From positions 29,973 through 93,972 of the forward strand of contig CAVPCP010000025.1 in the NCBI GenBank assembly GCA_963702415.1: a DNA stretch of 64,000 nucleotides, given 5' to 3'. The position numbers were made by a program, and so were the translations under genes. Origin of the DNA: an uncultured Bacteroidales bacterium (lineage in GTDB: Bacteria; Bacteroidota; Bacteroidia; Bacteroidales; VadinHA17). This document shows, in pieces, positions 32,960 to 58,101 of the stretch; position 1 is the stretch's first letter; the number at the start of each line of letters is the position of its first letter. Under the pieces are notes generated by a model. That model worked only from the letters and a program-made list of their open reading frames with translations, had not been told where the DNA came from and searched no databases.

Positions 32960-33520
32960 TTGAAAATCTACATTAAAAATATGGTTTGCATAAGGTGCCA
33001 GATGGCAGTTAAATCCGAGCTGGATAAACTCGGGTTGCATCACACTAAGGTTGAAATAGGTGAGACTGAAATCATGGAGGACCTTACACCAATGCAAATG
33101 GATAATCTGAGAAGTTCTCTTAAAAATATCGGGCTTGAATTGCTGGATGATAAGAAAAACATTATGGTTGAGAGAATAAAAACAATTATCATTGAACTGG
33201 TACACTATAATGAAGATCAAATCAAAACAAACCTTTCCGATTACCTGAGCGAAAAGCTCAATCACAATTATACTTATCTTTCTAATCTCTTTTCTGAGGT
33301 CAAAGGATCTACCATTGAGAAGTTTTACCTGTCAAATAAAATAGAAAGGGTAAAAGAGCTGCTTGTATATGGTGAGCTCAATCTTTCCGAAATTGCCTGG
33401 AAAATGCATTACAGCAGTGTTGCCCATCTGTCGAACCAGTTTAAGAAAATGACAGGTCTTACCCCATCGCACTTCAAAAATCTCAGGATCAAAAATCGCA
33501 CATCTCCGGAGAATGATTGA
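32960..33520 (+). CDS. AraC family regulator with N-terminal HMA-like CxxC domain
   Basis: IKNMVCIRC; YLSNLFSEVKG; LSEIAWKMHYSSVAHLSNQFKKMTGLTPS double HTH. Confidence 0.92.
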   Translation: MKIYIKNMVCIRCQMAVKSELDKLGLHHTKVEIGETEIMEDLTPMQMDNLRSSLKNIGLELLDDKKNIMVERIKTIIIELVHYNEDQIKTNLSDYLSEKLNHNYTYLSNLFSEVKGSTIEKFYLSNKIERVKELLVYGELNLSEIAWKMHYSSVAHLSNQFKKMTGLTPSHFKNLRIKNRTSPEND

Positions 33521-39220: not shown

Positions 39221-39285
39221 TGTAAATTATGTAACTTTTTTCAAAAGTTGTGTAATACTTATCCTTTGAAGGGTATCGACCTTTA
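39221..39285 (+). promoter_or_regulatory. regulon motif copy 4 (susC promoter)
   Basis: TGTAAATTATGTAA-N16-TGTAA-N22-GACCTTTA. Confidence 0.8.
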
Positions 39286-45152: not shown

Positions 45153-47129
45153 ATGAAAATTCTTTTCAGAGGGGTCTGGTTGCTCATCTTCACTTTTACC
45201 CTTTTTTCGTGCGAGAATAAGGATAAAAATGATGGCATTCCGCCAGGTTATGTTCAGCTTGTACGTTCCAGAGTCGGTACCGTCTATCTTGATCTAATGC
45301 AAACTGTCCATGAAATACCTGTGGATAAGAACATTGTGATAGAATTCAGCAATGTATTGGATACCTCGACCGTTAAAAAGAGCATATTGCTTAAAAAAGA
45401 AGGCACCGCAATAGTGGACGTCAAAGTTTCTTACATGGATGATAACCGGACGGTAGTTCTTATCCCCTTTCAAGACCTTGATCATTATATTGATTATACC
45501 CTCGAAATAACATCTTCCCTGAAGGGGATTAACAAGGAGACCTTCCCGGGAGTGACCTATAGCTTTACTACCATTAATGGTACAATGGTAATCACCAATA
45601 TTACCCTGAACGATCAATCGTTTAATCCACCTGCGCTGCCAAAGGATGTAAGCCGAACATCGAATACCATCGTGATTGATTTCTCTGAAGCCCTTGATCC
45701 GGTCACTTATCAGTCCTCCTTCGTTTTTTCAGGTCCCACTGTCCCTTCGATTGCTCTCTCGGATGGAAATAAGAAGGTGACACTTACTAACTTTGGTACA
45801 CTTGACTATTATAAAAGATTTTATTTGACTATTTCAGTTAACCTTACCGCACAAAATGGTTTCAACTTCGATGGTTTCACAAATTCTTTCTATACCTCCC
45901 TTGATTCAACTTATAAATTTCCTCAGCTGACGGATGAAGAGCTGCTTGAACTTGTACAGCACCAAACCTTCAGGTATTTTTACGACTTTGCTCATCCCAA
46001 CAGCGGATTGGCACGTGATCGTAACACATCAGGTGATGTAGTTACCATAGGTGGCACCGGGTTTGGAGTAATGGCTTTGATAGTGGGAATAGAAAGAGGA
46101 TTTATTACCAGGGCACAGGGACTTACCCACATGGATAAAATGCTCGGTTTCCTTGAAACCTGCGATCGCTATCACGGTGTATGGCCGCACTGGCTCAACG
46201 GAGCGACAGGAAAAACTGTACCATTCAGTTCAAAAGATGATGGAGGCGACCTGGTGGAAACCTCATTCCTGATCCAGGGACTTTTATGTTTCAGGCAATA
46301 CCTCGATTCAGACATCCCGGAGGAACAGTCCATGATAAACCGGATTAATAGTCTTTGGCAAGCAGTGGAGTATGACTTCTTCACTCAGGGACTGAATGCC
46401 CTCTACTGGCACTGGTCGCCCAACTATGGTTTCCAGATAAACATGATGCTCAGGGGATACAATGAGACTTTAATCTGTTATGTACTTGGTGCCGGATCTC
46501 CCACACATTCAATCAGTAAGGATACTTATAAATATGGATACATGAATAACGGATCCATTCTTAACGGAAATACTTATTATGGAATTACACTGCCAATTGG
46601 AGGGCCGTATGGCGGACCACTCTTTTTTACTCATTATTCCTTTCTTGGGCTTGATCCGGGTAGCCTTGAAGATATTTATGTGAATTACCGGGACCAGAAT
46701 GTAGCCCATGCTCTTATTAACTGGAAGTATTGTGAAGAAAATCCCATACATTACGTAGGATATAGTGCTGATTGCTGGGGGCTTACTGCCAGTGATAATC
46801 AATCGGGGTACAGTTCCCATTCCCCCACAAACGACCTTGGAGTGATAAGCCCTACCGCTGCTGTCTCATCACTTCCCTATACTCCTGAACAATCCATGAA
46901 TGCTATCAGGCACTTTTACTATATGCTCGGTGACAGGCTCTGGGGTCCATACGGATTCTATGATGCTTTTAATATCACTGCCGGCTGGTGGGGCACCTCC
47001 TATCTCTCAATTGATCAGGGGCCTATGGTGATCATGATCGAAAATTACCGTACAGGACTGATCTGGGATCTTTTCATGAGCTGCCCGGAAGTGCAGAATG
47101 GATTGACGAAACTCGGGTTTCAAAAATAA
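45153..47129 (+). CDS. lipoprotein with two Ig-like domains + glucoamylase-family GH144 endo-beta-1,2-glucanase
   Basis: QTFRYFYDFAHPNSGLARDR, GGTGFG, HGVWPHW, DDGGDLVET, GGPLFFTHYSFLG, WGLTASD, YGFYDAF, IDQGP..MIENYR. Confidence 0.88.
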   Translation: MKILFRGVWLLIFTFTLFSCENKDKNDGIPPGYVQLVRSRVGTVYLDLMQTVHEIPVDKNIVIEFSNVLDTSTVKKSILLKKEGTAIVDVKVSYMDDNRTVVLIPFQDLDHYIDYTLEITSSLKGINKETFPGVTYSFTTINGTMVITNITLNDQSFNPPALPKDVSRTSNTIVIDFSEALDPVTYQSSFVFSGPTVPSIALSDGNKKVTLTNFGTLDYYKRFYLTISVNLTAQNGFNFDGFTNSFYTSLDSTYKFPQLTDEELLELVQHQTFRYFYDFAHPNSGLARDRNTSGDVVTIGGTGFGVMALIVGIERGFITRAQGLTHMDKMLGFLETCDRYHGVWPHWLNGATGKTVPFSSKDDGGDLVETSFLIQGLLCFRQYLDSDIPEEQSMINRINSLWQAVEYDFFTQGLNALYWHWSPNYGFQINMMLRGYNETLICYVLGAGSPTHSISKDTYKYGYMNNGSILNGNTYYGITLPIGGPYGGPLFFTHYSFLGLDPGSLEDIYVNYRDQNVAHALINWKYCEENPIHYVGYSADCWGLTASDNQSGYSSHSPTNDLGVISPTAAVSSLPYTPEQSMNAIRHFYYMLGDRLWGPYGFYDAFNITAGWWGTSYLSIDQGPMVIMIENYRTGLIWDLFMSCPEVQNGLTKLGFQK

Positions 47130-47281
47130 ATGACAGGTAAGCTTCTTTCCTCCTTGTAAACACGAACTCCATTCATCCTCTTTATTTTCAATTAAAGCTT
47201 TGCATTTTTCACAATATTACAGGCAGCTCCTCCGGAGATATTTATGATCCGGGGTGGTGTCTCTCCCTGCTTTAGCCGATA

Positions 47282-47346
47282 TGTGAATGATGTAATTAGT
47301 TTCAAAAGTTATGTAACACTTATCAGGTCAGATATGACGATCTTTA
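47282..47346 (+). promoter_or_regulatory. regulon motif copy 5
   Basis: TGTGAATGATGTAA-N16-TGTAA-N22-GATCTTTA. Confidence 0.8.
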
Positions 47347-47382
47347 TCGTTTAAAAATTCATCCCCGGTAAAATACAATTAA

Positions 47383-47850
47383 ATGAAAAAAATTATATTT
47401 TTCACCGTTTTTACAATACCTGTTATGGCAGGAATAATCTTCACAGGTTATTGGTCATCAATCCAAAAGCAAAAAGCTGCCCAGACTAAAAATGTGTTTA
47501 CTAATCCTGAATTGGCTTCAGCCCAGGAGGATGCAAATGTCACAGCTCAAACAGCGGCAATCCCTGAGGAGTGGAAAACATTCAGAAGCAAGTCAGAACT
47601 GAAAGTCAGAGAAAATGAAGTCCGAATCACTGAATTAAATTTAAAATTGAATAAACCTGGAGAAAAATTTGATACAATTTACGAAAAAAAGATTGCTATT
47701 CTGGGACTACAAAACAATGACATGAAGGCAAGGTTGGAGGCTTATGAGAAAATCCAAAGCGATTGGGCAACTTTTAAGGGTGAATTTAATCATGAAATGT
47801 TTGAGGTTGAAGAAGCATTGAAGGATCTAATGGTTGACAACAAAAATTAA
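47383..47850 (+). CDS. exported coiled-coil protein, stress-island type
   Basis: Hydrophobic N-terminus; EEWKTFR..E....NE..I, SDWATFKGEFNH. Confidence 0.65.
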   Translation: MKKIIFFTVFTIPVMAGIIFTGYWSSIQKQKAAQTKNVFTNPELASAQEDANVTAQTAAIPEEWKTFRSKSELKVRENEVRITELNLKLNKPGEKFDTIYEKKIAILGLQNNDMKARLEAYEKIQSDWATFKGEFNHEMFEVEEALKDLMVDNKN

Positions 47851-47862
47851 TTAAGTCAACTT

Positions 47863-48591
47863 TTAGTGTTCAGTTTTCTTTTGCTTTTGCTTTAGTTTTA
47901 GCTTTAATTCTGCAATAATCAGCTCATATTTGGTTATTCCTTTAGCCAGTTTTTTATTAGTAATCCTTAAATTATTCAACGCTACTTCAGCATCAATCTT
48001 TTCATCGATAAGTTGCATGCGCAAACGCTGTATCACATCCAGTTTTTTTTCCAATAAATAATGCAATTTAATAAGTTTCTCTTCTTCTTTCTTAATTTCT
48101 GATATGTCAGTTGCCACCAGTATGCAATAATCCCCTTGCAGATAAGCAGGTAAAAACTGAATGGATAGTTTCAGATATAATGAGTTGATCAATGATATTA
48201 TCAGATCATTGTTTTTTTTATGGGTCTGTTGAGTAACCAATTTGTCAAATTTTGGTTTATCATCTGGAACGATGAAACGATTAAAGTATGAACCAATCAC
48301 TCGCTCAATTGGTTCATTCACAATATCAGCAAATCTCTGATTACAATAGATAATTATACATTCTTTTGAAAGAGTAATGGCTCCTTCATTCATTTCTTCA
48401 ATAAACATACGATATGGTGTTTCAGCAGAACTAATAGAATAAACTTGTTCTCCTTTAGCACCAGAAACCACAATCGCATCCACTTCTCCGCTTCGGATTG
48501 CTGTGAGCGTTTCTTCAGTTTCAGCCAGGCGAGAATGTAATTCTTCATTCTCAATAATGAGTTGTTCTTTTGTTTTGCTCATTGATATCAT
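47863..48591 (-). CDS. Kai-associated PAS/coiled-coil protein lacking a kinase domain
   Basis: ETEETLTAIRSGEVDAIVV, ETPYRMFIEEMNEGA, YCNQRFA; basic coiled-coil C-terminus with no H-box. Confidence 0.8.
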   Translation of the reverse strand: MISMSKTKEQLIIENEELHSRLAETEETLTAIRSGEVDAIVVSGAKGEQVYSISSAETPYRMFIEEMNEGAITLSKECIIIYCNQRFADIVNEPIERVIGSYFNRFIVPDDKPKFDKLVTQQTHKKNNDLIISLINSLYLKLSIQFLPAYLQGDYCILVATDISEIKKEEEKLIKLHYLLEKKLDVIQRLRMQLIDEKIDAEVALNNLRITNKKLAKGITKYELIIAELKLKLKQKQKKTEH

Positions 48592-48627
48592 TATTATAAA
48601 TCAAATGTGCTATAATACCTGAAAATC

Positions 48628-48977
48628 TTACAGGTCTTTTACCTTTTTTAAGTCTAACCCCAAAAGTACTTTTTCCACGTTTGACATATCTCCAATAATA
48701 CGACGGAATGGAAGCGGTAGTTTCTTAATCAATGTCGGCGCCGCAATAATCTGCTCATCTTTTGCTAAGCTTGGCATTTTATACAGGTCAATCACTTCAA
48801 GTTCGTATCTCCCTTCAAGATTTTCTTCGCAAATCTTTTTCAGGTTAGTCAGTGCCAGGACTGACCGGCTTGTTGTACCGGTAATGTATAAACGCAATAT
48901 ATATTTGTCCTTGCCTGATTGAGATATTGATCATATCAAACTCTGCTGATGAGTCTTTTTGTTTTTTTCTCTTTCAT
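48628..48977 (-). CDS. kaiB: KaiB family protein (second copy; 5' end apparently frameshifted)
   Basis: [48 protein letters not shown]. The track ORF starts at TTG 48897; the likely ATG is at 48977 in another frame. Confidence 0.9.
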
Positions 48978-49008
48978 AATTTTGACTGATAAATATTCTA
49001 TTTACAAA

Positions 49009-49350
49009 TCAGTTGACAGGCAGTAAATCCAATCCAACAAGAACCCGTTCTCTATCTGAGAGATCACCGATTATCTTGCGAACAGGTACCGGCAATTTTC
49101 TTACTAATGTTGGTAAGGCAAGGATCTGGTCCTCGTTACCCAACTGTGGATTTATCAATAGGTCAATTACTTCAATGGAATATTTCCCCTTCAATTGTTC
49201 TTCACATATTTTTTTCAGATTTGTAAATGCGGTAAGAGCTTTTGGTGTTTGTCCTGCAACATATAAACGAAGCATCCACTTATCATTTTCTGTTTTATCA
49301 GGTTTTTCTTTTTTAATTTTTTTATCTGAATTTTCCTTCTTTGATTTCAT
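49009..49350 (-). CDS. kaiB: KaiB family protein
   Basis: [41 protein letters not shown]. Confidence 0.95.
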
Positions 49351-49366
49351 TGGATATTCGTTTTAA

Positions 49367-51102
49367 TTATCTTTTCAATTTGCTTGCAGTACTTTTTTTA
49401 ATATCAGCTTTTCTGCTGACTGCCATTTCTATTTTATCCTGTTCCAGTCGTTTAATCATATCTTGTTCTGTTCGTATCATTTTAATAGCTTCGGATTCTT
49501 CCGACTCAAAATCGGCATTCAAGGAAGCAATCTGAGCTTCCATTGCCTTGCGTTTTCGTTCTAATTCACGTTTTTTATGTTCAATATCATGCTTATGCGT
49601 CAACACTTCGGCATTTTCAAGAGCTTCCTGTGCAATACGGGCTGAGCCGGTTAATACTCCACTGGCACCAATATAAACCTCACGTAATTTTACACCATGG
49701 TTAGTCAGGATGAATTCGCGGATTTGGTTAGAGTTAGCCATTCCGCGCGATTTAAGAACATACATTCCCCTGTTCCGTTCACCGTTTAATTCAATATCAC
49801 GAAGCAATAACCAGGTATCTATCAGCGATGATATTCCGACATCAGAACTCTCCAATGTACTATCGCCGGAAGTCAGGCTGGTAAACAATGCTGTTATTTG
49901 ATTCAACTTAAGAAAATCAACAATACGCATTAACATCGTTTTTACTTCGTTCTCTTTATCACCAACAAAGAAAGTATTTATTGGATCCAGAATAACAATA
50001 TCAGGTTTGAAATGCTTTTACAGCTTTGTGAGTTACAGCCAGATGCATTTCAAGACCATAAAATGTTGGCCGGGTTGCCTGAAATTGTAAAAGTCCTTTT
50101 TGCACCCAGGTCTCTAATTTTATACCTATAGAACGCATATTGCGCATTAACTGGTTTGGAGATTCCTCGAAACAGAAATAAAGAACACGTTCACCTCTTT
50201 TACATGCAGCTTCTGCAAAGTGAGCTGCAATGCTCGTTTTTCCTACTCCCGCAGTACCGGAAACAAGTACGGTGCTGCCGCGGTAATAACCTTTCCCTTC
50301 GAGCATTGTATCAAGTTCAGTTATCCCACTTGAGATTCTTTCGTTTGATACAATATGTTCTAATCCTAAAGAAGTTACCGGTAATACTGAAAAGCCATTT
50401 TCATCAATCAGAAATGGATACTCATTTGTTCCATGCATTGAACCACGGTATTTTACAACCCGTAAACGGCGTGTAGAAGTCTGTTCCGTTACCCGATGGT
50501 CGAGCATAATGACACAATCTGAAACATATTCTTCCAAACCTTGCCTGGTATAAGTCTCTTCTCCACGCTCTCCCGTAATGATTGCAGGTAACACCTTTAT
50601 CTTTTAACCAGCGAAATAACCGCCGCAGTTCAGCGCGTAAGATAAGTTGGTTCGGCAATCCGGCAAACAGTGATTCAATGGTATCCAAAACAACACGTTT
50701 TGCCCCAATCGAATCAATTGCATAATTAAGCCGTATGAATAAGCCTTCCAGATCGTATTCCCCGGTTTCTTCTATTTCACTGCGCTCAATATGAACGTGT
50801 TCAAGTACAATTTTTTTATGTTTAATAAGGTCTTCCAGATCAAAACCGAGCGAAGCAACATTTTTGGTTAATTCTTCATTGGTTTCTTCGAATGACATAA
50901 ATACACCCGGTTCGTTAAACTGAGTTGTACCACGTACCAGAAACTCCATTCCAAAAAGTGTCTTTCCGCATCCTGCACCACCACATACGAGGGTGGGTCT
51001 GCCTGTTGGTAATCCACCGCCAGTTATTTCATCAAACCCCTGAATTCCCGTCGGAGATTTGGGGAGATTTTTATTTAAAATTTTGTGCTCTGTCTTTTTC
51101 AT
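49367..51102 (-). CDS. kaiC: double-domain KaiC (2 frameshifts, near 50585 and 50005)
   Basis: CI: TGIQGFDEITGGGLP, GGAGCGKT, SFEE, RVVLDTI, EEYVSDCV; CII: GTAGVGKT, FEES, ISSLIDTWLLLR, KSRGMANSNQIREF; C-terminal coiled coil. Confidence 0.95.
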
Positions 51103-51201
51103 TGATCTTTATATAGCCACAATATATAGTTATAGTCATAATCTGTTCAGTGGCAACGAGTTGATATTTAAGGCCTATTCTATTTTAAGAAAATCAATCT
51201 T

Positions 51202-51266
51202 TAAAGATTTAATTATTTTTTGAGATATGAATTACATAATTATTGAAAAATGTTACATAATTCACA
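51202..51266 (-). promoter_or_regulatory. regulon motif copy 6 (kaiC promoter)
   Basis: Reverse strand TGTGAATTATGTAA-N16-TGTAA-N22-AATCTTTA. Confidence 0.8.
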
Positions 51267-51423
51267 TATCTTCTTTCTCTATAGCGATTGAAAAACCATT
51301 AACCTTGACCGCCTTAATTTGAGTAAATATCCATAAAATAACTTGTCCGGAACACTCTTTACAACTTTGCTCTATCAAACCTCAGAAATCTCAAGCAAAA
51401 AAGGTAGACCGCTTTGTGTGATG

Positions 51424-51488
51424 CGTGAATTATGTAATATTTGCCGGGAATTGTGTAACTCTTCTGTTCCTGCCTGCCCCTAAATTTG
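51424..51488 (+). promoter_or_regulatory. regulon motif copy 7 (hybrid kinase promoter)
   Basis: CGTGAATTATGTAA-N16-TGTAA-N22-TAAATTTG. Confidence 0.82.
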
Positions 51489-51570
51489 TGTACTGCCATT
51501 CATTTAGAATTTAAATGAATGATTTGTTAATTATTTCGATTGATTGTCAACTCAATCTAAAATATTCAGT

Positions 51571-53556
51571 ATGGTAACACACAGCCTACAGGAATCCCGA
51601 TATGCCAGAAGCCTCATAGAGGCAAGTCTTGATCCATTGTTCACAATTAGTCCCGAAGGGAAAATTACTGATATAAACAATGCTTCGATAGACATAACAG
51701 AAGTAACCCGCGAGAATCTGATCGGCACAGATTTTTTTGAATACTTTACAGAACCTGAAAAAGCACGTGAAATTTATAAACAAGTATTCACTGAAGGTTT
51801 TGTAGCCGATTACCCTTTAACCATACGCGACGGCAAGCTTACTGAAGTATTGTTTAATGGCTCGGTTTATAAAGATGAGCGGGGAAAAGTGATTGGTGTT
51901 GTTGTTGTGGCAAGGGATATTACCGACCATAAAAGAGTTGAGAAAGAATTGAAGGAGGCTAAAGTGAATGCTGAGTCTGCAACGCAAATCGCCGTAGTAG
52001 CACAAAGTAAAGCTGAAAGCGCCACACACATTGCTGAAGAAGCTGTGAGATCCAAGCAACAGTTTTTGTCGAACATGAGCCATGAGATCCGGACACCAAT
52101 GAATGCAATTATAGGGTTTACAAAAGTATTACTGAAATCAGAACTCGACACAAAACAGAGAGAGTATTTAAACGCCATTAAGATGAGTGGTGATGCTTTG
52201 ACAGTTTTGATCAACGACATTCTCGACCTTGCAAAAGTGGATGCCGGGAAAATGATATTTGAGCAGATACCTTTCAAAATGGATGCGTCAATATCTGCCA
52301 TGATTCATTTGTTTGAAACAAAAATTCAGGAAAAAAATCTGCTTTTGATAAAAGAATATGACAATAAAATTCCGAAAGTATTGATTGGTGATCCCGTTCG
52401 TCTGCATCAGATCATCTTGAACCTGCTAAGCAATGCGGTTAAGTTTACATCAAAGGGGAAGGTTACTATGAGCGTGAAATTAATCAGTGAAGATGAGGAG
52501 AAGGTAATAATTGAATTTTCAGTTACTGATACCGGAATCGGGATCCCGGAAGACAGACTTGGTCATATTTTTGAGAACTTTCAGCAGGCATCCAGCGAAA
52601 CTGCAAGGTTGTATGGAGGTACAGGCCTGGGACTTGCCATTTCTAAACAATTGGTAGAATCGCAGGGGGGGAGCATTACTGTAAAAAGTAAAATGGAAGA
52701 AGGCTCAATGTTTAGGTTTGTTTTACCATTTCAGAAAACAGATGCTGAGGTCGAGTTAGAGAAGGTGATGAATATTCTGAATACCAGAGTTCAAAATATT
52801 AAAGTACTGGTTGTTGAAGATATAGCTCTCAATCAATTACTGATGAAAACACTCTTAGACGATTTTGGATTTAAACTTGATATTGCTGACAATGGAAAAA
52901 CAGCTATAGAAAAACTACAGAATAATTCGTATGATATTATTTTAATGGACCTGCATATGCCTGAGATGAACGGTTTTGAAGCAACCGAATACATTCGCAA
53001 CAAAATGAATTCTCAGATTCCAATAATCGCTTTAACTGCTGATGTAACTACTGCTGATTTAAGAAGATGCACAGCTGTAGGAATGAATGATTATATCTCA
53101 AAACCTCTTGACGAACAATTATTATACGGTAAAATACTTAAATTGTTAAAGATAGTCGACCTGTCAAAGGATAGCCAAATGCCGCCGGTGAAGACAAGAA
53201 TTACCAATTTGACTTATCTGAACCAACGTACTAAAGCCAATCCGGAACTCATGACGGAAATGATTGGGCTTTATTTGAAGCAGACACTCCCATTGATAAG
53301 CAAATTGAAACAAAGCATGAACAATAATGACTGGAATTCGGTGTATGAAGCTGCTCATAAATTGATTCCTTCATTTTCAATAATGGGCATAAACAAAGAT
53401 TTTGAAGAGACTGCAAGAAAAATTCAGGAATATTCGAATACAAAAAAGCAACTTAAGGAAGTGCCTGAAATGGTTCTGCAACTTGAAACCGTTTGTTCCA
53501 AAGCATGCGAAGAACTGGAAGAAGAGTTAAATATCATCAAAAAATCCAAAGGATGA
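51571..53556 (+). CDS. cytoplasmic PAS hybrid histidine kinase (PAS-HisKA-HATPase-REC-Hpt)
   Basis: YARSLIEASLDP PAS, FLSNMSHEIRTPMN, NAVKFT, DTGIGI, GGTGLGL, ILMDLHMP, AAHKL; no TM segment. Confidence 0.93.
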   Translation: MVTHSLQESRYARSLIEASLDPLFTISPEGKITDINNASIDITEVTRENLIGTDFFEYFTEPEKAREIYKQVFTEGFVADYPLTIRDGKLTEVLFNGSVYKDERGKVIGVVVVARDITDHKRVEKELKEAKVNAESATQIAVVAQSKAESATHIAEEAVRSKQQFLSNMSHEIRTPMNAIIGFTKVLLKSELDTKQREYLNAIKMSGDALTVLINDILDLAKVDAGKMIFEQIPFKMDASISAMIHLFETKIQEKNLLLIKEYDNKIPKVLIGDPVRLHQIILNLLSNAVKFTSKGKVTMSVKLISEDEEKVIIEFSVTDTGIGIPEDRLGHIFENFQQASSETARLYGGTGLGLAISKQLVESQGGSITVKSKMEEGSMFRFVLPFQKTDAEVELEKVMNILNTRVQNIKVLVVEDIALNQLLMKTLLDDFGFKLDIADNGKTAIEKLQNNSYDIILMDLHMPEMNGFEATEYIRNKMNSQIPIIALTADVTTADLRRCTAVGMNDYISKPLDEQLLYGKILKLLKIVDLSKDSQMPPVKTRITNLTYLNQRTKANPELMTEMIGLYLKQTLPLISKLKQSMNNNDWNSVYEAAHKLIPSFSIMGINKDFEETARKIQEYSNTKKQLKEVPEMVLQLETVCSKACEELEEELNIIKKSKG

Positions 53557-53987
53557 AGGAAGATACTAAAATATTGCTTTTCCTGGTTGATGATGATGCT
53601 TTGTTCTTAAAATCATTGGAGATAGAATTTGGAGATAATACTGAATCTGTTATACAAACATATGCGACAGGGGAGCTCTGTCTCGAAAATATAACACAAA
53701 ATCCCGATGTTATAATTCTGGATTACCATCTTAACAGTGTTGATAAAAATGCAATAAACGGGCTGGAAACACTCGACAGAATAAAAAAAGTCAATCAGAC
53801 GATACCTGTCGTGATGCTCTCCTCGCAGGATAAGATAGAGGTGGCAGTGAATTGCATGAAACACCAGGCTTATGATTATATTGTTAAAAGTGAAACTGCT
53901 TTTATCCGGTTGCAGAAAACCATAACCACCATTTTTCATTATCAGAAATTAGAAAAGGCATTAAGCTGGTATATGGAGAAGATGTAA
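53553..53987 (+). CDS. single-domain response regulator
   Basis: ATG 53553 overlaps the kinase stop (ATGA); FLVDDD, IILDYHL, MLSS, YDYIVK. Confidence 0.9.
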   Translation: MKEDTKILLFLVDDDALFLKSLEIEFGDNTESVIQTYATGELCLENITQNPDVIILDYHLNSVDKNAINGLETLDRIKKVNQTIPVVMLSSQDKIEVAVNCMKHQAYDYIVKSETAFIRLQKTITTIFHYQKLEKALSWYMEKM

Positions 53988-54002
53988 CAACAACAGGTAC
54001 AA

Positions 54003-55844
54003 ATGTTGTTAAGGAAATTTTTCATACTTTTTTTTGTTACAATTTCAATAAGTGAATTTGCCAATGCACAGCAGGACAGTGTCAAAACAGATTCAACTCA
54101 GCTGTACAATAATATAGAATCCTATTCGAAGCGAAGTAAGTTTAACGGATTTATTTACCGGTTGATTTTTAAACCGGCTGCGACCGACTCAACAATTAAA
54201 GCAGCTAAAAGGAGAGCTTATAAAAAGCTGCTTCAAAATCAATACAACACCTTTGAAGGAAAAATCATCCGCAATATCGATATAGAAACTCTGGATCCTT
54301 TTGGATACTCAGTCTCTGATACCACGGTTAAAAGACAGAATATCTTATCCAAAGCAGGGAATTGGATGCATATAAAATCACAAGGTATTACGATCAGAAA
54401 TCTCTTGCTTATCCGTAAGAATCAATCTTTCAATACATTACTTGTGAAAGAATCGGAGCGTTTGATCCGCAGCCAGAAATATGTGCATGATGTTTCTTTT
54501 AATATTATAGCGGCTGGGGCAGGATCCGATTCAGTAGATATACTTATTCGTGAACTGGATAACTGGAGCATCATTCCGGAAGGATTTCTTATGACTTCAA
54601 AAATCAATGCCGGGTTGACTGATAAGAACTTTTTGGGGACCGGTCATGAATTCCGAAATGTATTTTCAAGGAATTTTATAGGGGAAATAAATTCCTTTAA
54701 TACATACTATTCTGTTCCAAACTTTCGTAACTCATACATCAGCACTAAGTTGCATTTTGGTTTTGACGGCTATGGAAATTACGCAAGGAGTGTTATCATT
54801 GACCGTCCTTTCTTTTCCCCGTTAGCTAAATGGGCAGCTGGTGTAACTTTAGCTTCTCAAACCAGAAAGGATTCCCTCCAGGATATAAATTCGGTTTATG
54901 TTCCTGTAACTTTGAAATTCGGGACACAGGATTACTGGGCAGGTAAAGCACTGCATCTTTTTAAAGGCAGCTCAGAAGAGGCCCTTGTAACCAATTTAAT
55001 CTTGGCCGCCCGATATCTGCATATACGATATACTGAAGAACCACCCGAGCTTTTGGATCCATTTCATAATTATTCCAGCGAAGACTTTTTTCTGGCTGAA
55101 GCCGGAATTTCCACAAGGAAATATGTACAGGATAAATACATCTTCCGATTCGGTATTAAAGAAGATGTACCAATCGGCAGCGTATACTCCTTAACAGGAG
55201 GTTACCAGATTAAGAATAATACTGGCCGGTTGTATTTCGGTTTGCGGGTCTATTTTGGGAACTATTACGAATGGGGATTCCTGAGTTCCAACTTCGAATA
55301 CGGAACATTCTTTAAAGCATCACATACCGAACAGGGTGTAGTGACAGCAGGCGTAAATTATTTTACCGGGTTATTTGAAATCGGAAAATGGAAATTCAGG
55401 CAGTTTGTTAAGCCACAGATGACGGTTGGCATTAACAGGTTTTCAAGTGATAGCCTGACGCTTAATGACAAATATGGCCTGGATGGATTTAACAGTCGCG
55501 TATTGTCGGGAACTAACCGCATTCTCTTCACTTTACAGACTCAGTCATACGCCCCGGGGAATTTAATCGGATTCCGTTTTGGGCCTTTTATTTCCTATTC
55601 GCTCGGCATGCTTAGCGATGCAGAAACAGGATTTAAAAACAGCAGAGTATATTCACAGATCAGTTTGGGGGTCCTGATTAAAAACGAGAACCTGATCTTT
55701 AACCCTTTTCAGATTTCCATCTCTTTTTATCCATTAATCCCGGGAACCGGACAGAATGTATTTAGGGTGAACTCATTTAAAACAACTGATTTTGGTTTCA
55801 GGGATTTTGAAATTGGGAAACCCGGACAGATGATGTATCAATGA
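54003..55844 (+). CDS. Omp85/TamA-like outer-membrane protein
   Basis: Signal; POTRA-like ESERLIR segment; DNWSI, DKNFLGTGH, RPFFSP barrel motifs. Confidence 0.65.
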   Translation: MLLRKFFILFFVTISISEFANAQQDSVKTDSTQLYNNIESYSKRSKFNGFIYRLIFKPAATDSTIKAAKRRAYKKLLQNQYNTFEGKIIRNIDIETLDPFGYSVSDTTVKRQNILSKAGNWMHIKSQGITIRNLLLIRKNQSFNTLLVKESERLIRSQKYVHDVSFNIIAAGAGSDSVDILIRELDNWSIIPEGFLMTSKINAGLTDKNFLGTGHEFRNVFSRNFIGEINSFNTYYSVPNFRNSYISTKLHFGFDGYGNYARSVIIDRPFFSPLAKWAAGVTLASQTRKDSLQDINSVYVPVTLKFGTQDYWAGKALHLFKGSSEEALVTNLILAARYLHIRYTEEPPELLDPFHNYSSEDFFLAEAGISTRKYVQDKYIFRFGIKEDVPIGSVYSLTGGYQIKNNTGRLYFGLRVYFGNYYEWGFLSSNFEYGTFFKASHTEQGVVTAGVNYFTGLFEIGKWKFRQFVKPQMTVGINRFSSDSLTLNDKYGLDGFNSRVLSGTNRILFTLQTQSYAPGNLIGFRFGPFISYSLGMLSDAETGFKNSRVYSQISLGVLIKNENLIFNPFQISISFYPLIPGTGQNVFRVNSFKTTDFGFRDFEIGKPGQMMYQ

Positions 55845-55894
55845 AATAAAAGCTGAATTGCTTTTCTGGCTGATCGGGGCATAATCTAAAAATA

Positions 55895-55958
55895 TGTAAA
55901 TCATGTAAATCTGTATTGGAATTCTGTAACATTTCAGGTGTCAACGGATTTATTTTTG
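55895..55958 (+). promoter_or_regulatory. regulon motif copy 8
   Basis: TGTAAATCATGTAA-N16-TGTAA-N21-TATTTTTG. Confidence 0.78.
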
Positions 55959-55994
55959 CCTGATGGATATTCATTGTTAATTGATTTGAAAAAA

Positions 55995-56207
55995 ATGAAT
56001 TCAACAAAATCAAATTTAATCCGGAACAGCAGGAGAAGCGGGCTCAGACAGAATCCGGTTGCCATAATTAACAATCAGGTTTCAATCGAAGAAGAAAGGA
56101 AATATGAGATGTTAGGAAACCTGCGTAAAAGGCTTGGCAAATCAAAAGAAGAATTTAACAGGATCCTGGAGTTTTACAAACACCTCCTTGAAAACAGAAC
56201 CCTGTAA
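55995..56207 (+). CDS. small protein with CsbD-like C-terminal helix pair; paralog of 29575-29820
   Basis: MLGNLRKRLGKSKEEFNRIL; the ATG at 55995 lies downstream of the promoter motif. Confidence 0.6.
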   Translation: MNSTKSNLIRNSRRSGLRQNPVAIINNQVSIEEERKYEMLGNLRKRLGKSKEEFNRILEFYKHLLENRTL

Positions 56208-56251
56208 TACCAGCTTGTAATCGTTTAATATTCAATGCTTTTAATTAAAGA

Positions 56252-56316
56252 TGTGAATTATGTAACTTATTACCACAATTGTGTAACACTCCCTGTGCAG
56301 GAGAGAGATACCTTTA
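56252..56316 (+). promoter_or_regulatory. regulon motif copy 9
   Basis: TGTGAATTATGTAA-N16-TGTAA-N22-TACCTTTA. Confidence 0.82.
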
Positions 56317-56434
56317 CCATTAGTAACTTAATTAAAGATAAAACTGGTACCAATGAACATTATTTCCTTTAAAAAACCAAAATCCAATAGAGTTGCACTT
56401 TTGGTGGATCTATTAATAATTAAAATCAAATAAG

Positions 56435-56755
56435 ATGAAAAAGATTGTTCTTTGTTTTATGGTGACATTCATGTCCCTGGCGTTTGTCCCGCTTCAATTA
56501 AAAGCTGTGACACCTGAGGAACCTTCCTCCATACCTGCTCCAAAACCTGTCGATTCAGCAGAAGTTAAAATCATGTTGCTAAGGTTAGATGAAATAAAGG
56601 CAACGGATATGTCGAATATGAAATCGGAGGAAAAGAAAGAGTTACGAAAAGAAGTAAAGTCAATCAAACATAATCTGAGAGAAGTAGGCGGCGGCGTATA
56701 TCTTTCAGTTGCTGCAATTGTTCTGATTATAGTTCTGTTAGTTGTTTTACTGTAA
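56435..56755 (+). CDS. small exported protein with C-terminal TM helix
   Basis: Signal, RLDEIK..D.S......EKKELRKEV, GGVYLSVAAIVLII. Confidence 0.75.
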   Translation: MKKIVLCFMVTFMSLAFVPLQLKAVTPEEPSSIPAPKPVDSAEVKIMLLRLDEIKATDMSNMKSEEKKELRKEVKSIKHNLREVGGGVYLSVAAIVLIIVLLVVLL

Positions 56756-56774
56756 ATAATAAAAATTTAAAATC

Positions 56775-56930
56775 ATGGGAAATTTACTTTATGTTGTAGC
56801 AGTTGTCCTTCTTATAGCATGGGCAATCGGATTTGTAGGCTTTCATGCCGGAGGTATCATACACGTTCTCCTTGTTATTGCAATCATTGCAGTAATACTC
56901 AGGGTTATTCAGGGGAAAAAAGTCATCTAA
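56775..56930 (+). CDS. lmo0937/DUF5670 family small membrane protein
   Basis: Below the track cutoff; translates to MGNLLYVVAVVLLIAWAIGFVGFHAGGIIHVLLVIAIIAVILRVIQGKKVI*. Confidence 0.88.
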   Translation: MGNLLYVVAVVLLIAWAIGFVGFHAGGIIHVLLVIAIIAVILRVIQGKKVI

Positions 56931-57072
56931 ATTGATTAATTCAGAAATTAATCAAATTAAAATTAACGCGTTAATAACAAACATTTAGTCCACTTTGAAT
57001 AGTCACTGTGAAGTAAAGAAACAAATAAACCGATGACTGTCTGGAGTGGACTTATTATTTAAAAACAAAATT

Positions 57073-57336
57073 ATGAGCTCAGGAAAAGTATTATTAGGCT
57101 TACTGGCCGGTGTTGCTGCCGGTGCATTATTGGGGATATTATTTGCCCCGGAAAAAGGTTCTGTCACCCGCAAAAAAATGTCTAAAAAGGCAGAAAAATA
57201 CGGGGATGATTTAAAAGAAAAATTCAATGAATTTGTTGACGATATCTCCGAAAAATTTGGAGAGGTCAAGGATGACATTTCTGACTTTGTAGAACCTAAA
57301 AAGTCCAGAACAGAAACTTCTCAAAAAGACGAATAA
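57073..57336 (+). CDS. YtxH domain protein
   Basis: MSSGKVLLGLLAGVAAGALLGILFAPEKGSVTRKK. Confidence 0.9.
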   Translation: MSSGKVLLGLLAGVAAGALLGILFAPEKGSVTRKKMSKKAEKYGDDLKEKFNEFVDDISEKFGEVKDDISDFVEPKKSRTETSQKDE

Positions 57337-57355
57337 ACTGCCACAGGCCGAAGCC

Positions 57356-57697
57356 ATGGAAGACAATACAAAGCTTATTGAGTCACTGCTTGAAAGGACT
57401 GCTGAATATGGCAAAGCGAGCTTTGAATTAGTAAAACTTAAAGCTCTTGATAAAACGTCAGACGCAGTTTCCTCATTAATACCGCATTCTGTTGTATTGG
57501 TATTAGCTGCTATATTCATGCTTTTCCTTAATCTGGGATTAGCTTTCTGGCTTGGAGAAATTTTGGGAAGGACCTTTTACGGATTTTTTGTCGTTGCTGC
57601 TTTTTATGGTTGTATAGGTTTTGTTTTGCATTTCTTTATGCATAAATGGCTTAAAAAGATTGCCGGGAATTTTTTCATTAAACATGTGTTAAAATAA
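57356..57697 (+). CDS. holin-like (YqjE/DUF1469-type) two-TM membrane protein
   Basis: EYGK..ELVKLK..DKT, two TM helices, GFFVVAAFY; follows ytxH. Confidence 0.7.
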   Translation: MEDNTKLIESLLERTAEYGKASFELVKLKALDKTSDAVSSLIPHSVVLVLAAIFMLFLNLGLAFWLGEILGRTFYGFFVVAAFYGCIGFVLHFFMHKWLKKIAGNFFIKHVLK

Positions 57698-57702
57698 AAT
57701 CC

Positions 57703-58101
57703 ATGCAAAAAATAGCATCCGTTGCCGAGCTTAAAAATGCAATTCAAATATTGGAAGTTGAACAATCTGAAAAGGGACAGCTTCTGAAAGAACAATTCTT
57801 CATTACTTATAAAAGCTTAAGGCCTGGCAATTTTCTCAGGAGCACGATGAAAGATATTTCTACGTCGCCATATCTGTTCGATAACATCTTAGGCGCTGCC
57901 ATGGGTTTGGTTTCCGGATTTATATCAAGAAAAATATTTATTGGTGCATCAGGCAATAAACTAAAAAAGCTCATCGGTCATGTTTTGCAGTTTGGCATTA
58001 TAAACTTTGTTGCCATGCATCCCGGAGCCATTAAAACAATCGGCTGGTCTATAATTCAACGTTTTACCCGCAAAAATAGAATGAATTCCATAAAGCCGTG
58101 A
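57703..58101 (+). CDS. hypothetical protein of the ytxH/holin-like cassette
   Basis: 132-aa ORF tightly coupled to both neighbours. Confidence 0.65.
   Translation: MQKIASVAELKNAIQILEVEQSEKGQLLKEQFFITYKSLRPGNFLRSTMKDISTSPYLFDNILGAAMGLVSGFISRKIFIGASGNKLKKLIGHVLQFGIINFVAMHPGAIKTIGWSIIQRFTRKNRMNSIKP

What the first reader, a model, noticed from the sequence alone, without database searches (positions are those of the whole stretch)
47863..53987. KaiA-less kaiC-kaiB-kaiB-PAS module wired to a divergent phosphorelay
Seen: KaiC has both P-loops, SS at the S431/T432-equivalent site (ISSLIDT) and a long C-terminal coiled coil, followed by two distinct KaiBs and a PAS protein. Across a 470-bp spacer are a soluble PAS-HK-REC-Hpt and a lone receiver. 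Both promoters carry the regulon motif. Known: SS plus coiled coil marks KaiC2-type systems (Rhodobacter hourglass timer; Legionella stress role under RpoS). Inference: an energy-state or timing switch embedded in the stress regulon, possibly with feedback.
Basis: partly seen in the sequence, partly recalled or inferred. Interest (0 to 1): 0.7.

Follow-up and report, generated by a model that had tools for sequence, protein, structure and literature searches.

The report
KaiC2-type KaiBC module in stress regulon
An uncultured Bacteroidales bacterium carries a KaiA-less clock-protein operon (kaiC, two old kaiB paralogues and a kinase-less PAS protein) that belongs to a stress regulon, and the breaks in its genes look like sequencing errors.

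Summary
On the minus strand lie kaiC (two P-loops, SS phosphosite, C-terminal tail aligned to the Rhodobacter sphaeroides KaiC coiled coil), two kaiB genes and a 242-aa PAS protein. Opposite lie a soluble PAS-HisKA-HATPase-REC-Hpt kinase and a lone receiver.

The operon has four 1-nt insertions, two in kaiC and two in the second kaiB. They are most likely assembly errors. Intact orthologues exist, the window shows no relaxed constraint, three other genes here are split, and relatives' short-read contigs lack the kaiC bases.

The regulon motif is real: a 21-bp-spaced direct repeat plus a fixed -7 box. The kaiC and kinase promoters are among its best copies.

The "wiring" is not supported as Kai-specific. 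The kinase-receiver cassette, a small AraC-type regulator and the motif occur together in many congeners without kaiC. They look like the regulon's own control module, with Kai as an accessory member.

Possibly new points:
- Second-position KaiBs form one clade across many phyla.
- The PAS module after kaiB is fused elsewhere to kinases, GGDEF-EAL or HD domains, but stands alone in this Bacteroidota clade.

Verdict: a new variant of the known KaiC2/KaiB2 kind.

The parts
50587..51102 (-). kaiC piece 1 (CI domain, Walker A GGAGCGKT, catalytic FEET); the frame is lost after ...KGVT at an extra base near 50586-50588
   Evidence: ORF. Pfam KaiC 1.1e-47. Aligns to 8db3/8dba residues 3/5-163/165. 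Insertion located.
50013..50585 (-). kaiC piece 2 (end of CI, start of CII, Walker A GTAGVGKT, catalytic FEES); the frame is lost at an extra base near 50012-50013
   Evidence: ORF. Pfam. Aligns to 8fwi residues 164-357, E 4.9e-98. Insertion located.
49367..50011 (-). kaiC piece 3 (rest of CII with the phosphosite ISSLIDTW, then a C-terminal tail of about 90 aa without Pro or Gly, aligned to the KaiC_RS coiled coil)
   Evidence: Aligns to 8dba residues 360-538, E 1.4e-42. With the two extra bases skipped the gene reads 577 aa without a stop.
49009..49350 (-). kaiB-I (first kaiB, 113 aa, Lys-rich N-terminal extension)
   Evidence: Pfam KaiB 8e-26. NCBIfam KaiB NF006798 119.1 bits against a cut-off of 110. 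Best PDB hit is KaiB_RS 8fwj_M, 5.4e-32. Falls with first-position and single KaiBs in the tree.
48628..48977 (-). kaiB-II (second kaiB). The core ORF is 48897-48628. The N-terminal extension with the ...AEFDM... motif starts at ATG 48977 and is broken by two 1-nt insertions near 48958 and 48931.
   Evidence: Pfam KaiB 3.6e-25. DNA alignment to G003 and G006. Orthologues are 115-117 aa. Falls in the second-position clade.
47863..48591 (-). Kinase-less PAS protein: N-terminal helix (...AIRSGEVDAIVV), PAS domain, and a C-terminal part of about 70 aa that reads as coiled coil; no histidine-kinase domain
   Evidence: Pfam PAS 5.3e-5. NCBIfam PAS S-box. Orthologues of 231-250 aa in 10 loci; homologous N-terminal modules are fused to output domains elsewhere. 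The coiled-coil call for the C-terminal part is my reading of the sequence.
51203..51262 (-). kaiC promoter: repeats 51262-51253 and 51241-51232 (both AATTATGTAA, 0 mismatches, the best copy in the genome) and a -7-like box ATCTTT at 51208-51203
   Evidence: The motif is conserved upstream of kaiC in 10 Bacteroidota-type loci.
51428..51488 (+). Kinase promoter: repeats 51428-51437 and 51449-51458 (1 mismatch) and TAAATTTG at 51481-51488, which fits TAnnTTTG (the Bacteroidetes -7 consensus as I recall it)
51544..53556 (+). Soluble hybrid histidine kinase PAS-HisKA-HATPase-REC-Hpt (the start is more likely ATG 51571)
   Evidence: Pfam. Colinear with BarA/TorS/ArcB models. Orthologues in 14 other genomes of the genus.
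53553..53987 (+). Single-domain receiver (144 aa from ATG 53553, which overlaps the kinase stop)
   Evidence: Pfam Response_reg 3.9e-17. Follows the kinase in G003, G041 and G042.
54003..55844 (+). 613-aa protein with no family match, always after the receiver in the cassette; the N-terminus looks like a signal peptide, so possibly an outer-membrane protein
   Evidence: No Pfam or NCBIfam hit. Syntenic in G003, G041 and G042. The signal-peptide reading is mine.
32960..33520 (+). Outside the finding: 186-aa AraC-type regulator (N-terminal MxCxxC domain plus HTH_18), candidate binder of the regulon motif
   Evidence: Pfam HTH_18. Next to kaiC in L046, L047, L101, G003 and G006 by Pfam; a 186-aa ORF stands at the same place in L048, L063 and L104. 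Co-occurs with the motif across the genus.

Best explanation
This is a working KaiA-independent KaiC2/KaiB2-type switch, and the breaks in it are consensus errors of the assembly.

By homology with R. sphaeroides KaiC, KaiC would assemble through its C-terminal coiled coil. It would autophosphorylate on the SS pair when ATP/ADP is high. It would be driven back to the unphosphorylated state when KaiB binds the CI ring at lower ATP/ADP. That makes it an energy-state or hourglass switch.

The operon has four parts that are conserved far beyond this organism:
- kaiC;
- kaiB-I, the type that also occurs alone;
- kaiB-II, an old paralogue with an N-terminal F(D/E)xx(L/M)-type extension;
- an N-terminal helix plus PAS module.

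In most phyla that PAS module is the input domain of a histidine kinase, and sometimes of GGDEF-EAL or HD proteins. I infer that it reads the state of KaiC/KaiB. In this Bacteroidota clade the PAS module has lost its kinase, so it must act in trans.

Transcription of the operon comes from a regulon promoter: two direct repeats 21 bp apart, abutting the -35 region, with a fixed -7 box. The regulon's own control module is most likely the small AraC-type regulator together with the hybrid kinase-Hpt and the lone receiver next door. Kai is then an accessory, co-induced member of the regulon and not its master.

Shown: gene content, homology, conservation of order, the motif and the co-occurrences. 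Inferred: every biochemical step, which protein binds the motif, and any contact between the PAS protein and KaiC, KaiB-II or the kinase.
For: Family
- The three kaiC pieces tile KaiC_RS, with E-values of 7.5e-76, 4.9e-98 and 1.4e-42 against about 1e-45, 1e-47 and 1e-15 for cyanobacterial KaiC.
- The SS pair aligns to S413/S414.
- The preprint 10.1101/2022.11.28.518275 (passages read) ties SS plus a tail of about 50 aa to the kaiC2 subgroup, the coiled-coil dodecamer, KaiA-free autophosphorylation and ATP/ADP control with KaiB.

Artefact
- Exactly two 1-nt insertions in kaiC against G003 (91% nt identity) and G006, and two more in kaiB-II.
- The read-through is 577 aa, the same length as G003. 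The window has 13 lineage-specific residue changes against 22 in G003, of which 1 against 4 are at sites invariant in the other four sequences. dN/dS is 0.13.
- Three other genes in the window are split. Against G003, two of them (the ATPase and ccsBA) carry net +1 insertions in the window.
- Two other contig_-named MAGs (L101, L104) carry their own +1 insertions at other kaiC sites, while the NODE_-named L046 and G006 are intact.
- Contigs of four public metagenomes leave out one letter at 50009-50014 (all covering depth in X2 and X3, most in X4, none reported in X1) and at 50585-50587 (all covering depth in X2, one contig in X1).
- The genome is 73% complete in only 27 contigs.

Architecture
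- Of 80 related loci, 35 have two kaiB after kaiC, 33 have one and 12 have none. A homologous PAS ORF follows in 32 of 35, 21 of 33 and 0 of 12.
- All 35 second-position KaiBs lie on one side of a branch (support 82/86, 80% of 200 bootstrap trees).
- Of 46 complete PAS ORFs, 31 carry HATPase_c (12 of them also REC), 1 carries GGDEF-EAL, 1 carries GAF-HD and 10 are stand-alone at 231-250 aa.
- KaiC-like proteins of Pseudomonas bind their neighbouring kinase, probably through its PAS domain (10.1101/2022.01.26.477890, passages read).

Regulon
- 24 sites with at most 3 mismatches, with a box at fixed distance (T in 23 of 24 at positions +57 and +58).
- The kaiC site is the only one with 0 mismatches.
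- The motif lies upstream of kaiC in 10 loci, and all 28 hits fall in Bacteroidota-type loci.
- 21 of 31 genomes of the genus have the pattern, and the reversed control has 0 hits in every genome.
- The AraC homologue is in all 17 genomes with 3 or more hits, in 1 of 4 with 1-2 hits and in 1 of 10 with none.
- The cassette motif-AraC-kinase-receiver-613-aa protein is seen in G003, G041 and G042.
Against: - The source reads were not found. The best run holds only 0.29 of the words, so the four insertions are not disproved in this very strain.
- Four insertions in about 2.1 kb is denser than the roughly four elsewhere in the 64-kb window. Either the locus is error-prone or it is decaying.
- In one search, X3 showed no 'left out' row at 50585. 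Its contig stops at 50588, and its loose end fits the one-letter-shorter form only on my reading.
- No tool showed any protein contact.
- The AraC-to-motif link rests on co-occurrence among related genomes, which are not independent, and on adjacency.
- G013 has the AraC homologue and no motif hit. G007 and G012 have motif and AraC but no close kinase orthologue.
- The KaiB-II branch has only moderate support, on 110 columns.
- G041-G046 were not searched for KaiC.
Confidence: 0.6

Rival explanations
1. One reading: the divergent PAS-HK-REC-Hpt kinase and the lone receiver are the dedicated output or input of this Kai module, with feedback onto the regulon. The kinase-less PAS protein would bridge KaiC to that kinase.
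For: - Kai operon and kinase share one intergenic region, with a motif on each side, in the window and in G003.
- Elsewhere the Kai-associated PAS module is fused to just this kind of hybrid kinase (PAS-HisKA-HATPase-REC in 12 of 46 ORFs).
- The window kinase is colinear with one such protein (26% identity over 533 aa, E 2e-38).
- The three genomes of the genus with a kinase-less PAS protein (G000, G003, G006) all have the kinase orthologue. G012, whose PAS protein is fused to a kinase, has none. That is only 4 genomes.
Against: - The kinase cassette occurs in 12 of the 24 congeners that were searched for both, and 10 of those 12 have no KaiC match.
- In G006 the two lie on different contigs (C9 and C16).
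- Only 1 of the 10 loci with a stand-alone PAS protein (L045) has the kinase beside kaiC.
- The two PAS domains are not specifically alike (E 0.042).
Confidence: 0.2
2. The operon is a true pseudogene in this strain: four real frameshifts, a Kai module in decay.
For: - Four insertions lie within about 2.1 kb, a density above that in the rest of the window.
- kaiC is patchy in the genus (3 of 24 genomes), so it is dispensable.
- The source reads were not available.
Against: - There are no stops, deletions or excess replacements. The window has fewer lineage-specific changes than the intact G003 gene, and dN/dS is 0.13.
- The split genes compared with G003 (the ATPase and ccsBA) also carry net +1 insertions in the window.
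- L101 and L104 show the same kind of error at other sites, while L046 and G006 are clean.
- Relatives' contigs lack the extra kaiC bases.
Confidence: 0.08
3. The repeat motif is not an AraC site. It is the promoter of an alternative (ECF-like) sigma factor or the site of another tandem binder such as a LytTR response regulator, and the AraC gene is merely a regulon member.
For: - The motif always points towards the downstream gene and sits 26-178 nt from start codons, as a promoter element would.
- From memory, 21-bp spacing of direct repeats is also typical of LytTR sites.
- In G003 and G042 the AraC gene itself follows a motif, which any regulon member could do.
Against: - A separate -7 box that fits TAnnTTTG (the primary-sigma consensus of Bacteroidetes as I recall it) lies 23 nt downstream at fixed distance, so the repeats occupy the activator position.
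- The two halves are the same 10-mer, unlike -35 and -10 elements.
- The phyletic match is with the AraC homologue (17 of 17 motif-rich genomes). No sigma or LytTR gene was seen in the cassette, but I did not test their co-occurrence.
Confidence: 0.25

Closest known systems
Rhodobacter sphaeroides KaiBC hourglass timer (KaiC_RS, PDB 8dba, 8db3, 8fwi; KaiB_RS in 8fwj)
   Same: - Closest solved relative of all three kaiC pieces and of both KaiBs.
- SS phosphosite, C-terminal extension aligned to its coiled coil, and no KaiA.
- The likely mechanism is taken from it.
   Different: - It has one kaiB, whereas here there are two old paralogues.
- Both KaiBs here keep 'GLD' near the C-terminus where KaiB_RS has 'NLK'.
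- The host here is an uncultured Bacteroidales bacterium; relatives' contigs come from sediment, freshwater and wetland metagenomes. It is probably not a phototroph, so a light-driven ATP/ADP cue cannot be assumed.
kaiC-kaiB-PAS/HK operon of Rhodopseudomonas palustris and Rhodobacter (Ma et al. 2016, PMC4794148; passages read)
   Same: Same order: kaiC, then kaiB, then a PAS gene, probably in one transcript.
   Different: - A second kaiB lies between kaiB and the PAS gene.
- The PAS protein here has no kinase domain.
KaiB2/KaiC2 of Bacteroidetes in the survey of Schmelling et al. 2017 (PMC5520375; passages read)
   Same: That survey states that a group of Bacteroidetes encodes only KaiB2/KaiC2-like proteins. 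This locus is of that kind.
   Different: The passages I read say nothing about tandem kaiB paralogues, the PAS partner or promoter motifs.
KaiC-like proteins of Pseudomonas with neighbouring kinase and single-domain receiver (preprint 10.1101/2022.01.26.477890; passages read); Legionella pneumophila KaiBC as cited there
   Same: - KaiC homologues sit next to histidine kinases and single-domain receivers and have a stress-resistance role.
- KaiC binds the kinase, probably via its PAS domain.
- The Legionella genes are growth-phase regulated and linked to oxidative stress.
   Different: - Pseudomonas has no KaiB.
- Here the kinase next door belongs to a cassette that exists without Kai.
Cyanobacterial KaiABC with SasA and CikA
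   Same: Double-domain KaiC, KaiB of the same family (E about 1e-30 to cyanobacterial KaiB), and output through two-component proteins.
   Different: - No KaiA.
- SS instead of ST.
- Below the cut-off of the cyanobacterial model TIGR02655 (351.9 against 546.25) but above NF006799 (739.7 against 408) for the intact orthologue.
- No SasA-like fusion.
Unorthodox hybrid kinases ArcB, BarA, TorS
   Same: HisKA-HATPase-REC-Hpt order; colinear matches to these NCBIfam models.
   Different: - Soluble, with a single N-terminal PAS domain.
- All matches are far below the equivalog cut-offs, so it is none of these.
- Its partner is a receiver without an output domain.

Membership tests
KaiC (double-domain, KaiC2 subgroup) | Two RecA-like KaiC domains, each with a Walker A loop and catalytic Glu pair | tested here: met
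   Pfam PF06745 on all three pieces. GGAGCGKT/FEET and GTAGVGKT/FEES are in the translations. Colinear with 8dba.
KaiC (double-domain, KaiC2 subgroup) | Curated family score | tested here: met
   The intact orthologue G003 (91% identical to the read-through) scores 739.7 bits against a cut-off of 408 on NF006799. It fails the cyanobacterial model TIGR02655 (351.9 against 546.25). Window piece 1 alone scores 251.3, below the cut-off because the gene is split.
KaiC (double-domain, KaiC2 subgroup) | Ser-Ser at the phosphorylation site, instead of Ser-Thr | tested here: met
   ISSLIDTW aligns to LSSLMDGW of KaiC_RS. SS is invariant in 5 of 5 orthologues (S424, S425).
KaiC (double-domain, KaiC2 subgroup) | C-terminal extension of about 50 aa or more that forms a coiled coil | tested here: met
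   The tail aligns to 8dba residues 489-538. It is present in G003, G006 and G012 and absent in G027 and G036. The coiled coil itself is inferred from that homology; it was not modelled.
KaiC (double-domain, KaiC2 subgroup) | One open reading frame | tested here: not met
   The assembly as given has two 1-nt insertions. The evidence favours assembly error, but the source reads were not seen.
KaiC (double-domain, KaiC2 subgroup) | Autokinase/ATPase activity and KaiA independence | not testable with these tools
   Only the lack of a KaiA match in the 73%-complete genome could be shown.
KaiB | KaiB domain above curated cut-offs | tested here: met
   Pfam PF07689 scores 90.0 and 87.9 bits against a cut-off of 27. 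On NCBIfam NF006798, KaiB-I scores 119.1 against 110 and passes. The KaiB-II core scores 94.8 and falls below; the core ORF lacks its N-terminal extension.
KaiB | Binding to the CI ring in the fold-switched state | not testable with these tools
   Inferred from 55-65% similarity to KaiB_RS and the cyanobacterial KaiBs.
kaiC-kaiB-PAS/HK operon | The PAS gene directly after kaiB encodes a histidine kinase | tested here: not met
   The 242-aa protein has PAS only. 31 of 46 homologous ORFs elsewhere have HATPase_c.
Unorthodox hybrid histidine kinase with phosphorelay | HisKA, HATPase_c, REC and Hpt in one chain, plus a separate receiver | tested here: met
   Pfam gives HisKA 1.6e-21, HATPase_c 1e-29 and REC 6.5e-28. 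Hpt scores only 17.8 bits against a cut-off of 24.6. The chain is colinear with ArcB to position 771 of 779 and with TorS to 948 of 967. The receiver scores 3.9e-17.
AraC/XylS regulator as binder of the regulon motif | The protein binds the repeats and activates the promoters | not testable with these tools
   Only an HTH_18 domain, adjacency to motif-bearing promoters and co-occurrence could be shown.

The most novel reading that the evidence does not exclude
KaiC2 systems are often four-part machines, not KaiBC pairs. KaiB-II would be an ancient paralogue found from Bacteroidota to Acidobacteriota, Proteobacteria, Nitrospirota and even Methanoperedens. It carries a conserved N-terminal F(D/E)xx(L/M) peptide. 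It would act as a dedicated adaptor that couples the phosphorylation state of KaiC to a portable helix-PAS input module, which evolution has plugged onto kinases, c-di-GMP enzymes or nothing at all. This would be a split counterpart of cyanobacterial SasA. In this Bacteroidales clade the free PAS protein would pass the KaiC state to the hybrid kinase of an AraC-controlled stress regulon, making cellular energy state a gate for the stress response in a non-phototroph.
Probability: 0.2. Interest if true: 0.7.

Novelty: new variant of a known kind. Interest (0 to 1): 0.45.

Why it matters
Almost all that is known about KaiA-less Kai systems comes from a few Proteobacteria. What they do in non-phototrophs, and how their state is read out, is still open.

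This locus and its 80 relatives give three concrete handles:
- a second, conserved KaiB type whose role is unknown;
- a portable PAS module that marks the output side of KaiC2 systems;
- a case where the module sits inside a defined promoter regulon with a candidate regulator, so its expression conditions can be tested.

It is also a caution. Highly conserved loci in long-read metagenome bins can collect frameshift errors that mimic pseudogenes.

Tried and rejected
- Complex prediction of KaiC (G003) + KaiB-II + PAS protein, with the PAS protein as partner, gave no verdict (score 0.16 against a mark of 0.32). This is evidence neither way.
- Rfam found no RNA family in 47000-57000.
- The PAS domains of the PAS protein and of the kinase are not specifically alike (E 0.042). 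I dropped the idea of a recent fission of one PAS-kinase gene.
- The 26% colinearity of the kinase with a Kai-linked hybrid kinase is the general likeness of such kinases, not orthology.
- A literature search for this regulon (Bacteroidetes, general stress, AraC, CsbD, stationary phase, regulon) gave nothing relevant. A search for tandem kaiB in non-cyanobacteria gave no paper that describes it in the listings I saw. Supplements were not read.
- I first assigned the perfect motif in G003 to the kinase promoter. One search shows it precedes the AraC gene that heads the cassette.
- I considered programmed +1 frameshifting for kaiC and rejected it. The breaks differ between bins and are absent in intact orthologues.

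Full report
WHAT IS THERE

On the minus strand the window holds kaiC in three ORF pieces (51102-50422, 50594-50001, 49936-49367). After it come a 113-aa KaiB (49350-49009), a second KaiB (core ORF 48897-48628) and a 242-aa PAS protein (48591-47863). On the plus strand lie a 670-aa soluble kinase (51544-53556), a receiver (to 53987) and a 613-aa protein with no family match (54003-55844).

The three kaiC pieces hit Pfam KaiC and tile R. sphaeroides KaiC (8dba, 8fwi, 8db3) without gap or overlap: residues 5-165, 164-357 and 360-538. Both Walker A loops and both catalytic Glu pairs are in the translations.

'GISSLIDTW' aligns to 'GLSSLMDGW' of KaiC_RS. The S413E/S414E mutant chain has EE at that place. 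The tail aligns to the coiled-coil part of KaiC_RS.

KaiA was not found in the genome, which is 73% complete. The control search found KaiA only in Synechococcus. The genome holds one kaiC and two kaiB.

THE FRAMESHIFTS

Against the intact orthologues of G003 (91% nt identity) and G006 (82%), the window's kaiC differs in length by exactly two single extra bases, near 50586 and 50012. The second kaiB has two more, near 48958 and 48931. They cut off an N-terminal extension that is intact in G003 (115 aa) and G006 (117 aa).

Six observations point to assembly error:

1. With the two bases skipped, kaiC reads 577 aa with no stop, the same length as in G003. The window lineage has 13 private residue changes against 22 in G003. 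Of these, 1 against 4 fall at sites invariant in the other four sequences. dN/dS is 0.13.
2. Three other genes in the window are split: ccsBA in three pieces, a P-type ATPase in two, and a GT4 glycosyltransferase in two. Against G003, the ATPase and ccsBA breaks are net +1 insertions in the window. The GT4 break was not compared.
3. Two other bins with contig_-style names (L101, L104) carry +1 insertions in kaiC at other sites, one of them shared between the two. L046 (a NODE_ assembly) and G006 are clean.
4. Contigs of four public metagenomes, 88-99% alike, leave out one letter at the kaiC sites.
   - At 50009-50014 this holds for all covering depth in X2 and X3 and most in X4.
   - At 50585-50587 it holds for all covering depth in X2 and one contig in X1.
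   - X3's contig stops at 50588 with a loose end that, on my reading, fits the shorter form.
   - Inside the gene, one more single-letter difference was listed, in one low-depth contig at 51052.
   - The laid stretch (49300-51200) did not reach the two kaiB-II sites.
5. The genome scores 73% complete in only 27 contigs, as expected if many marker genes are broken.
6. At the first site the window reads ACCTGCA where relatives read ACT-GCA or ACCT-CA.

The source reads were not found; the best run holds 0.29 of the words. Four errors in about 2.1 kb is also dense. A real pseudogene therefore keeps a small probability.

A possible reason for the density is that the kai operon is much more alike between species than its surroundings. 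dS to G003 is 0.31 for kaiC, 0.19 for kaiB-I and 0.22 for the PAS gene, against 0.82, 1.10 and 1.05 for the kinase, receiver and 613-aa genes. Reads of co-occurring congeners could then pile up on this locus. That last step is inference.

WHAT KIND OF KAI SYSTEM

The closest solved relatives of KaiC and of both KaiBs are the R. sphaeroides proteins. The preprint on that system (passages read) states several points:
- A tail of about 50 aa is found mainly in the kaiC2 subgroup, which has two serines.
- The tail forms a coiled-coil bundle that joins two hexamers.
- This allows autophosphorylation without KaiA.
- KaiB binding promotes dephosphorylation when ATP/ADP falls.

The intact orthologue passes NCBIfam NF006799 and fails the cyanobacterial model TIGR02655. 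A kaiC-kaiB-PAS/HK operon is on record for R. palustris and Rhodobacter (passages read). Bacteroidetes with only KaiB2/KaiC2-like proteins are on record too (passages read). So the kind is known.

WHAT GOES BEYOND THE KNOWN PICTURE

A scan of one genome per species gave 80 loci with KaiC 61-100% identical to G003, from many phyla and one archaeon.

Downstream of kaiC, 35 loci have two kaiB, 33 have one and 12 have none. An ORF homologous to the window's PAS protein follows in 32 of 35, 21 of 33 and 0 of 12.

I built a maximum-likelihood tree of 101 KaiB rows; KaiBs under 75 aa or with a stop in the hit were left out. All 35 second-position KaiBs lie on one side of a branch (support 82/86; 80% of 200 bootstrap trees need one change). 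A starred branch (95/81) separates 35 first-position plus 29 single KaiBs from the rest (the quick tree agreed). The bootstrap had not fully settled, and there are only 110 columns. The duplication is therefore old, and single KaiBs are of the first type.

KaiB-II proteins carry an N-terminal extension with a hydrophobic-acidic motif. In the alignment, by my count, 18 of 28 rows have F at that column and 25 of 28 have F, L, M, I or Y. The window keeps it as ...AEFDM... between its two insertions.

Of the 53 PAS ORFs, 46 were scanned against Pfam. I left out 5 cut by contig ends and 2 short ones (L104, L107). The results:
- 31 have HATPase_c, and 12 of these also have REC.
- 1 has GGDEF-EAL, 1 has GAF-HD and 1 has PAS-GAF only.
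- 1 has PAS plus HisKA, and 1 has two PAS domains.
- 10 are stand-alone at 231-250 aa.

The 10 stand-alone proteins all come from loci whose KaiC is at least 78% identical to G003. By record title these are Bacteroidales, Rikenellaceae, Lentimicrobium, Cryomorphaceae and one Balneolaceae bin.

The helix-PAS module thus behaves as a portable input domain of Kai-linked outputs. In Pseudomonas, KaiC-like proteins bind the neighbouring kinase, probably by its PAS domain (passages read). I infer that the PAS protein here reads the KaiC/KaiB state and acts in trans. No tool showed a contact.

THE REGULON

The motif is two copies of AATTATGTAA-like 10-mers with 21 bp from start to start.

In the genome, TGTAA pairs at spacing 21 number 58, against 28-39 at other multiples of three and 9-24 at other spacings. 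There are 24 sites with at most 3 mismatches and 37 with at most 4.

Anchored on the repeats, a third element appears 23 nt after the second repeat: A-n-C-T-T-T. T occurs in 23 of 24 sites at +57 and +58. It fits TAnnTTTG, the Bacteroidetes -7 box as I recall it. So the repeats abut the -35 region, the place of a class II activator.

The kaiC promoter is the only perfect copy, and the kinase promoter has one mismatch. Downstream genes include small proteins that I read as CsbD-like, GlsB/YeaQ-like, dodecin-like, DnaJ-like and SOD-like (no tool named them).

The motif stands upstream of kaiC in 10 related loci. All 28 hits in the 80 loci fall in Bacteroidota-type loci.

In the genus, 21 of 31 genomes have the pattern, and the reversed control has 0 hits everywhere. 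Many of these genomes have no kaiC.

WHO CONTROLS THE REGULON

A 186-aa AraC-type protein lies next to the kai operon. Its N-terminal domain carries MxCxxC, which I read as HMA-like; Pfam found only HTH_18. Pfam confirms it in L046, L047, L101, G003 and G006. A 186-aa ORF stands at the same place in L048, L063 and L104.

In L047, L048, L063, L101 and L104 that ORF ends 3 nt before the kaiC motif. In the window it lies at 32960-33520, next to an M1 peptidase. The peptidase is also a neighbour of kai in other loci, so the old neighbourhood seems to have been split by insertions.

Homologues (E at most 1e-20) occur in 19 of 31 genomes. That covers all 17 genomes with 3 or more motif hits, 1 of 4 with 1-2 hits and 1 of 10 with none. 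Related genomes are not independent, so this is a lead and not a test.

Full-length orthologues of the kinase (67-84% identity) occur in 14 other genomes, all among the motif-rich ones, usually beside an AraC paralogue. In G041 the order is AraC, then a perfect motif, then kinase, receiver and the 613-aa gene. In G003 and G042 the motif comes first and AraC heads the same four-gene row.

Of the 24 congeners searched for KaiC, 12 have the kinase orthologue and only G003 and G006 have kaiC as well. In G006 the two lie on different contigs.

I conclude that the phosphorelay belongs to the regulon's control module. Kai is an accessory member placed beside it in the window and in G003. How a kinase-Hpt and a receiver without an output domain would act on an AraC protein without a receiver domain is unknown.

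COMPARISON AND VERDICT

The locus works like the R. sphaeroides KaiBC switch and meets the sequence features of the KaiC2 subgroup. It fails the operon definition 'PAS gene = kinase'.

It is a new variant of a known kind. The parts that may be new are the KaiB-I/KaiB-II split, the portable PAS module with a kinase-less form, and membership in an AraC-linked regulon. My two searches found none of these in print, but listings and passages only were read, and no supplements.

A trans link through the PAS protein stays possible, supported by only four genomes.

Noticed in passing
window 2760-5620; 26984-29237; 60234-61600: Three more genes are split into overlapping ORFs. The ResB/CcsA-type cytochrome c assembly gene is in three pieces, a heavy-metal P-type ATPase in two and a GT4 glycosyltransferase in two. 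Against G003, the ATPase and ccsBA breaks are net +1 insertions in the window. This fits a systematic insertion error of the assembly.
   Followed up: partly
window 47863-51102 against 51544-55844: Synonymous divergence to G003 is 0.19-0.31 for kaiC, kaiB-I and the PAS gene (0.61 for the kaiB-II core), but 0.82-1.10 for the kinase, receiver and 613-aa genes. The kai operon seems to have been exchanged between species of the genus more recently than its flanks.
   Followed up: partly
G000 contig C25 about 59-104 kb (window about 29470 onwards) and contig C17 about 111-120 kb: The motif sites cluster. 17 of the 37 sites with at most 4 mismatches lie in one stretch of about 45 kb around the kai locus, and 7 lie in one 9-kb stretch of C17. 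Similar clusters are seen in G004, G019 and G010. These look like stress islands.
   Followed up: no
window 39225-39255 before the SusC-like gene at 39310-42324: A regulon motif with 2 mismatches also precedes a SusC/SusD-type polysaccharide uptake locus that includes a predicted glucoamylase. That is an odd member for a stress regulon. This locus is absent at the same place in G003.
   Followed up: no
window 47383-47850 and 55938-58101: A 155-aa protein with no family match follows a motif at 47286-47316 and has paralogues behind motifs on contig C17. After the 613-aa gene comes a row of small membrane or stress-type ORFs behind two more motifs at 55899 and 56256.
   Followed up: no
window about 23161-23238: A stretch of about 65-75 nt between two genes matches more than 20 places in G003 at 76-94% identity. 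It is not a tRNA. It is probably a small dispersed repeat.
   Followed up: partly
L023 (G027) and L024 (G036): Other families of the order have shorter KaiC proteins (484 and 469 aa) without the coiled-coil tail but still with SS. These are followed by two kaiB or one kaiB and a PAS-kinase fusion. So the tail and the SS site are not strictly linked.
   Followed up: no
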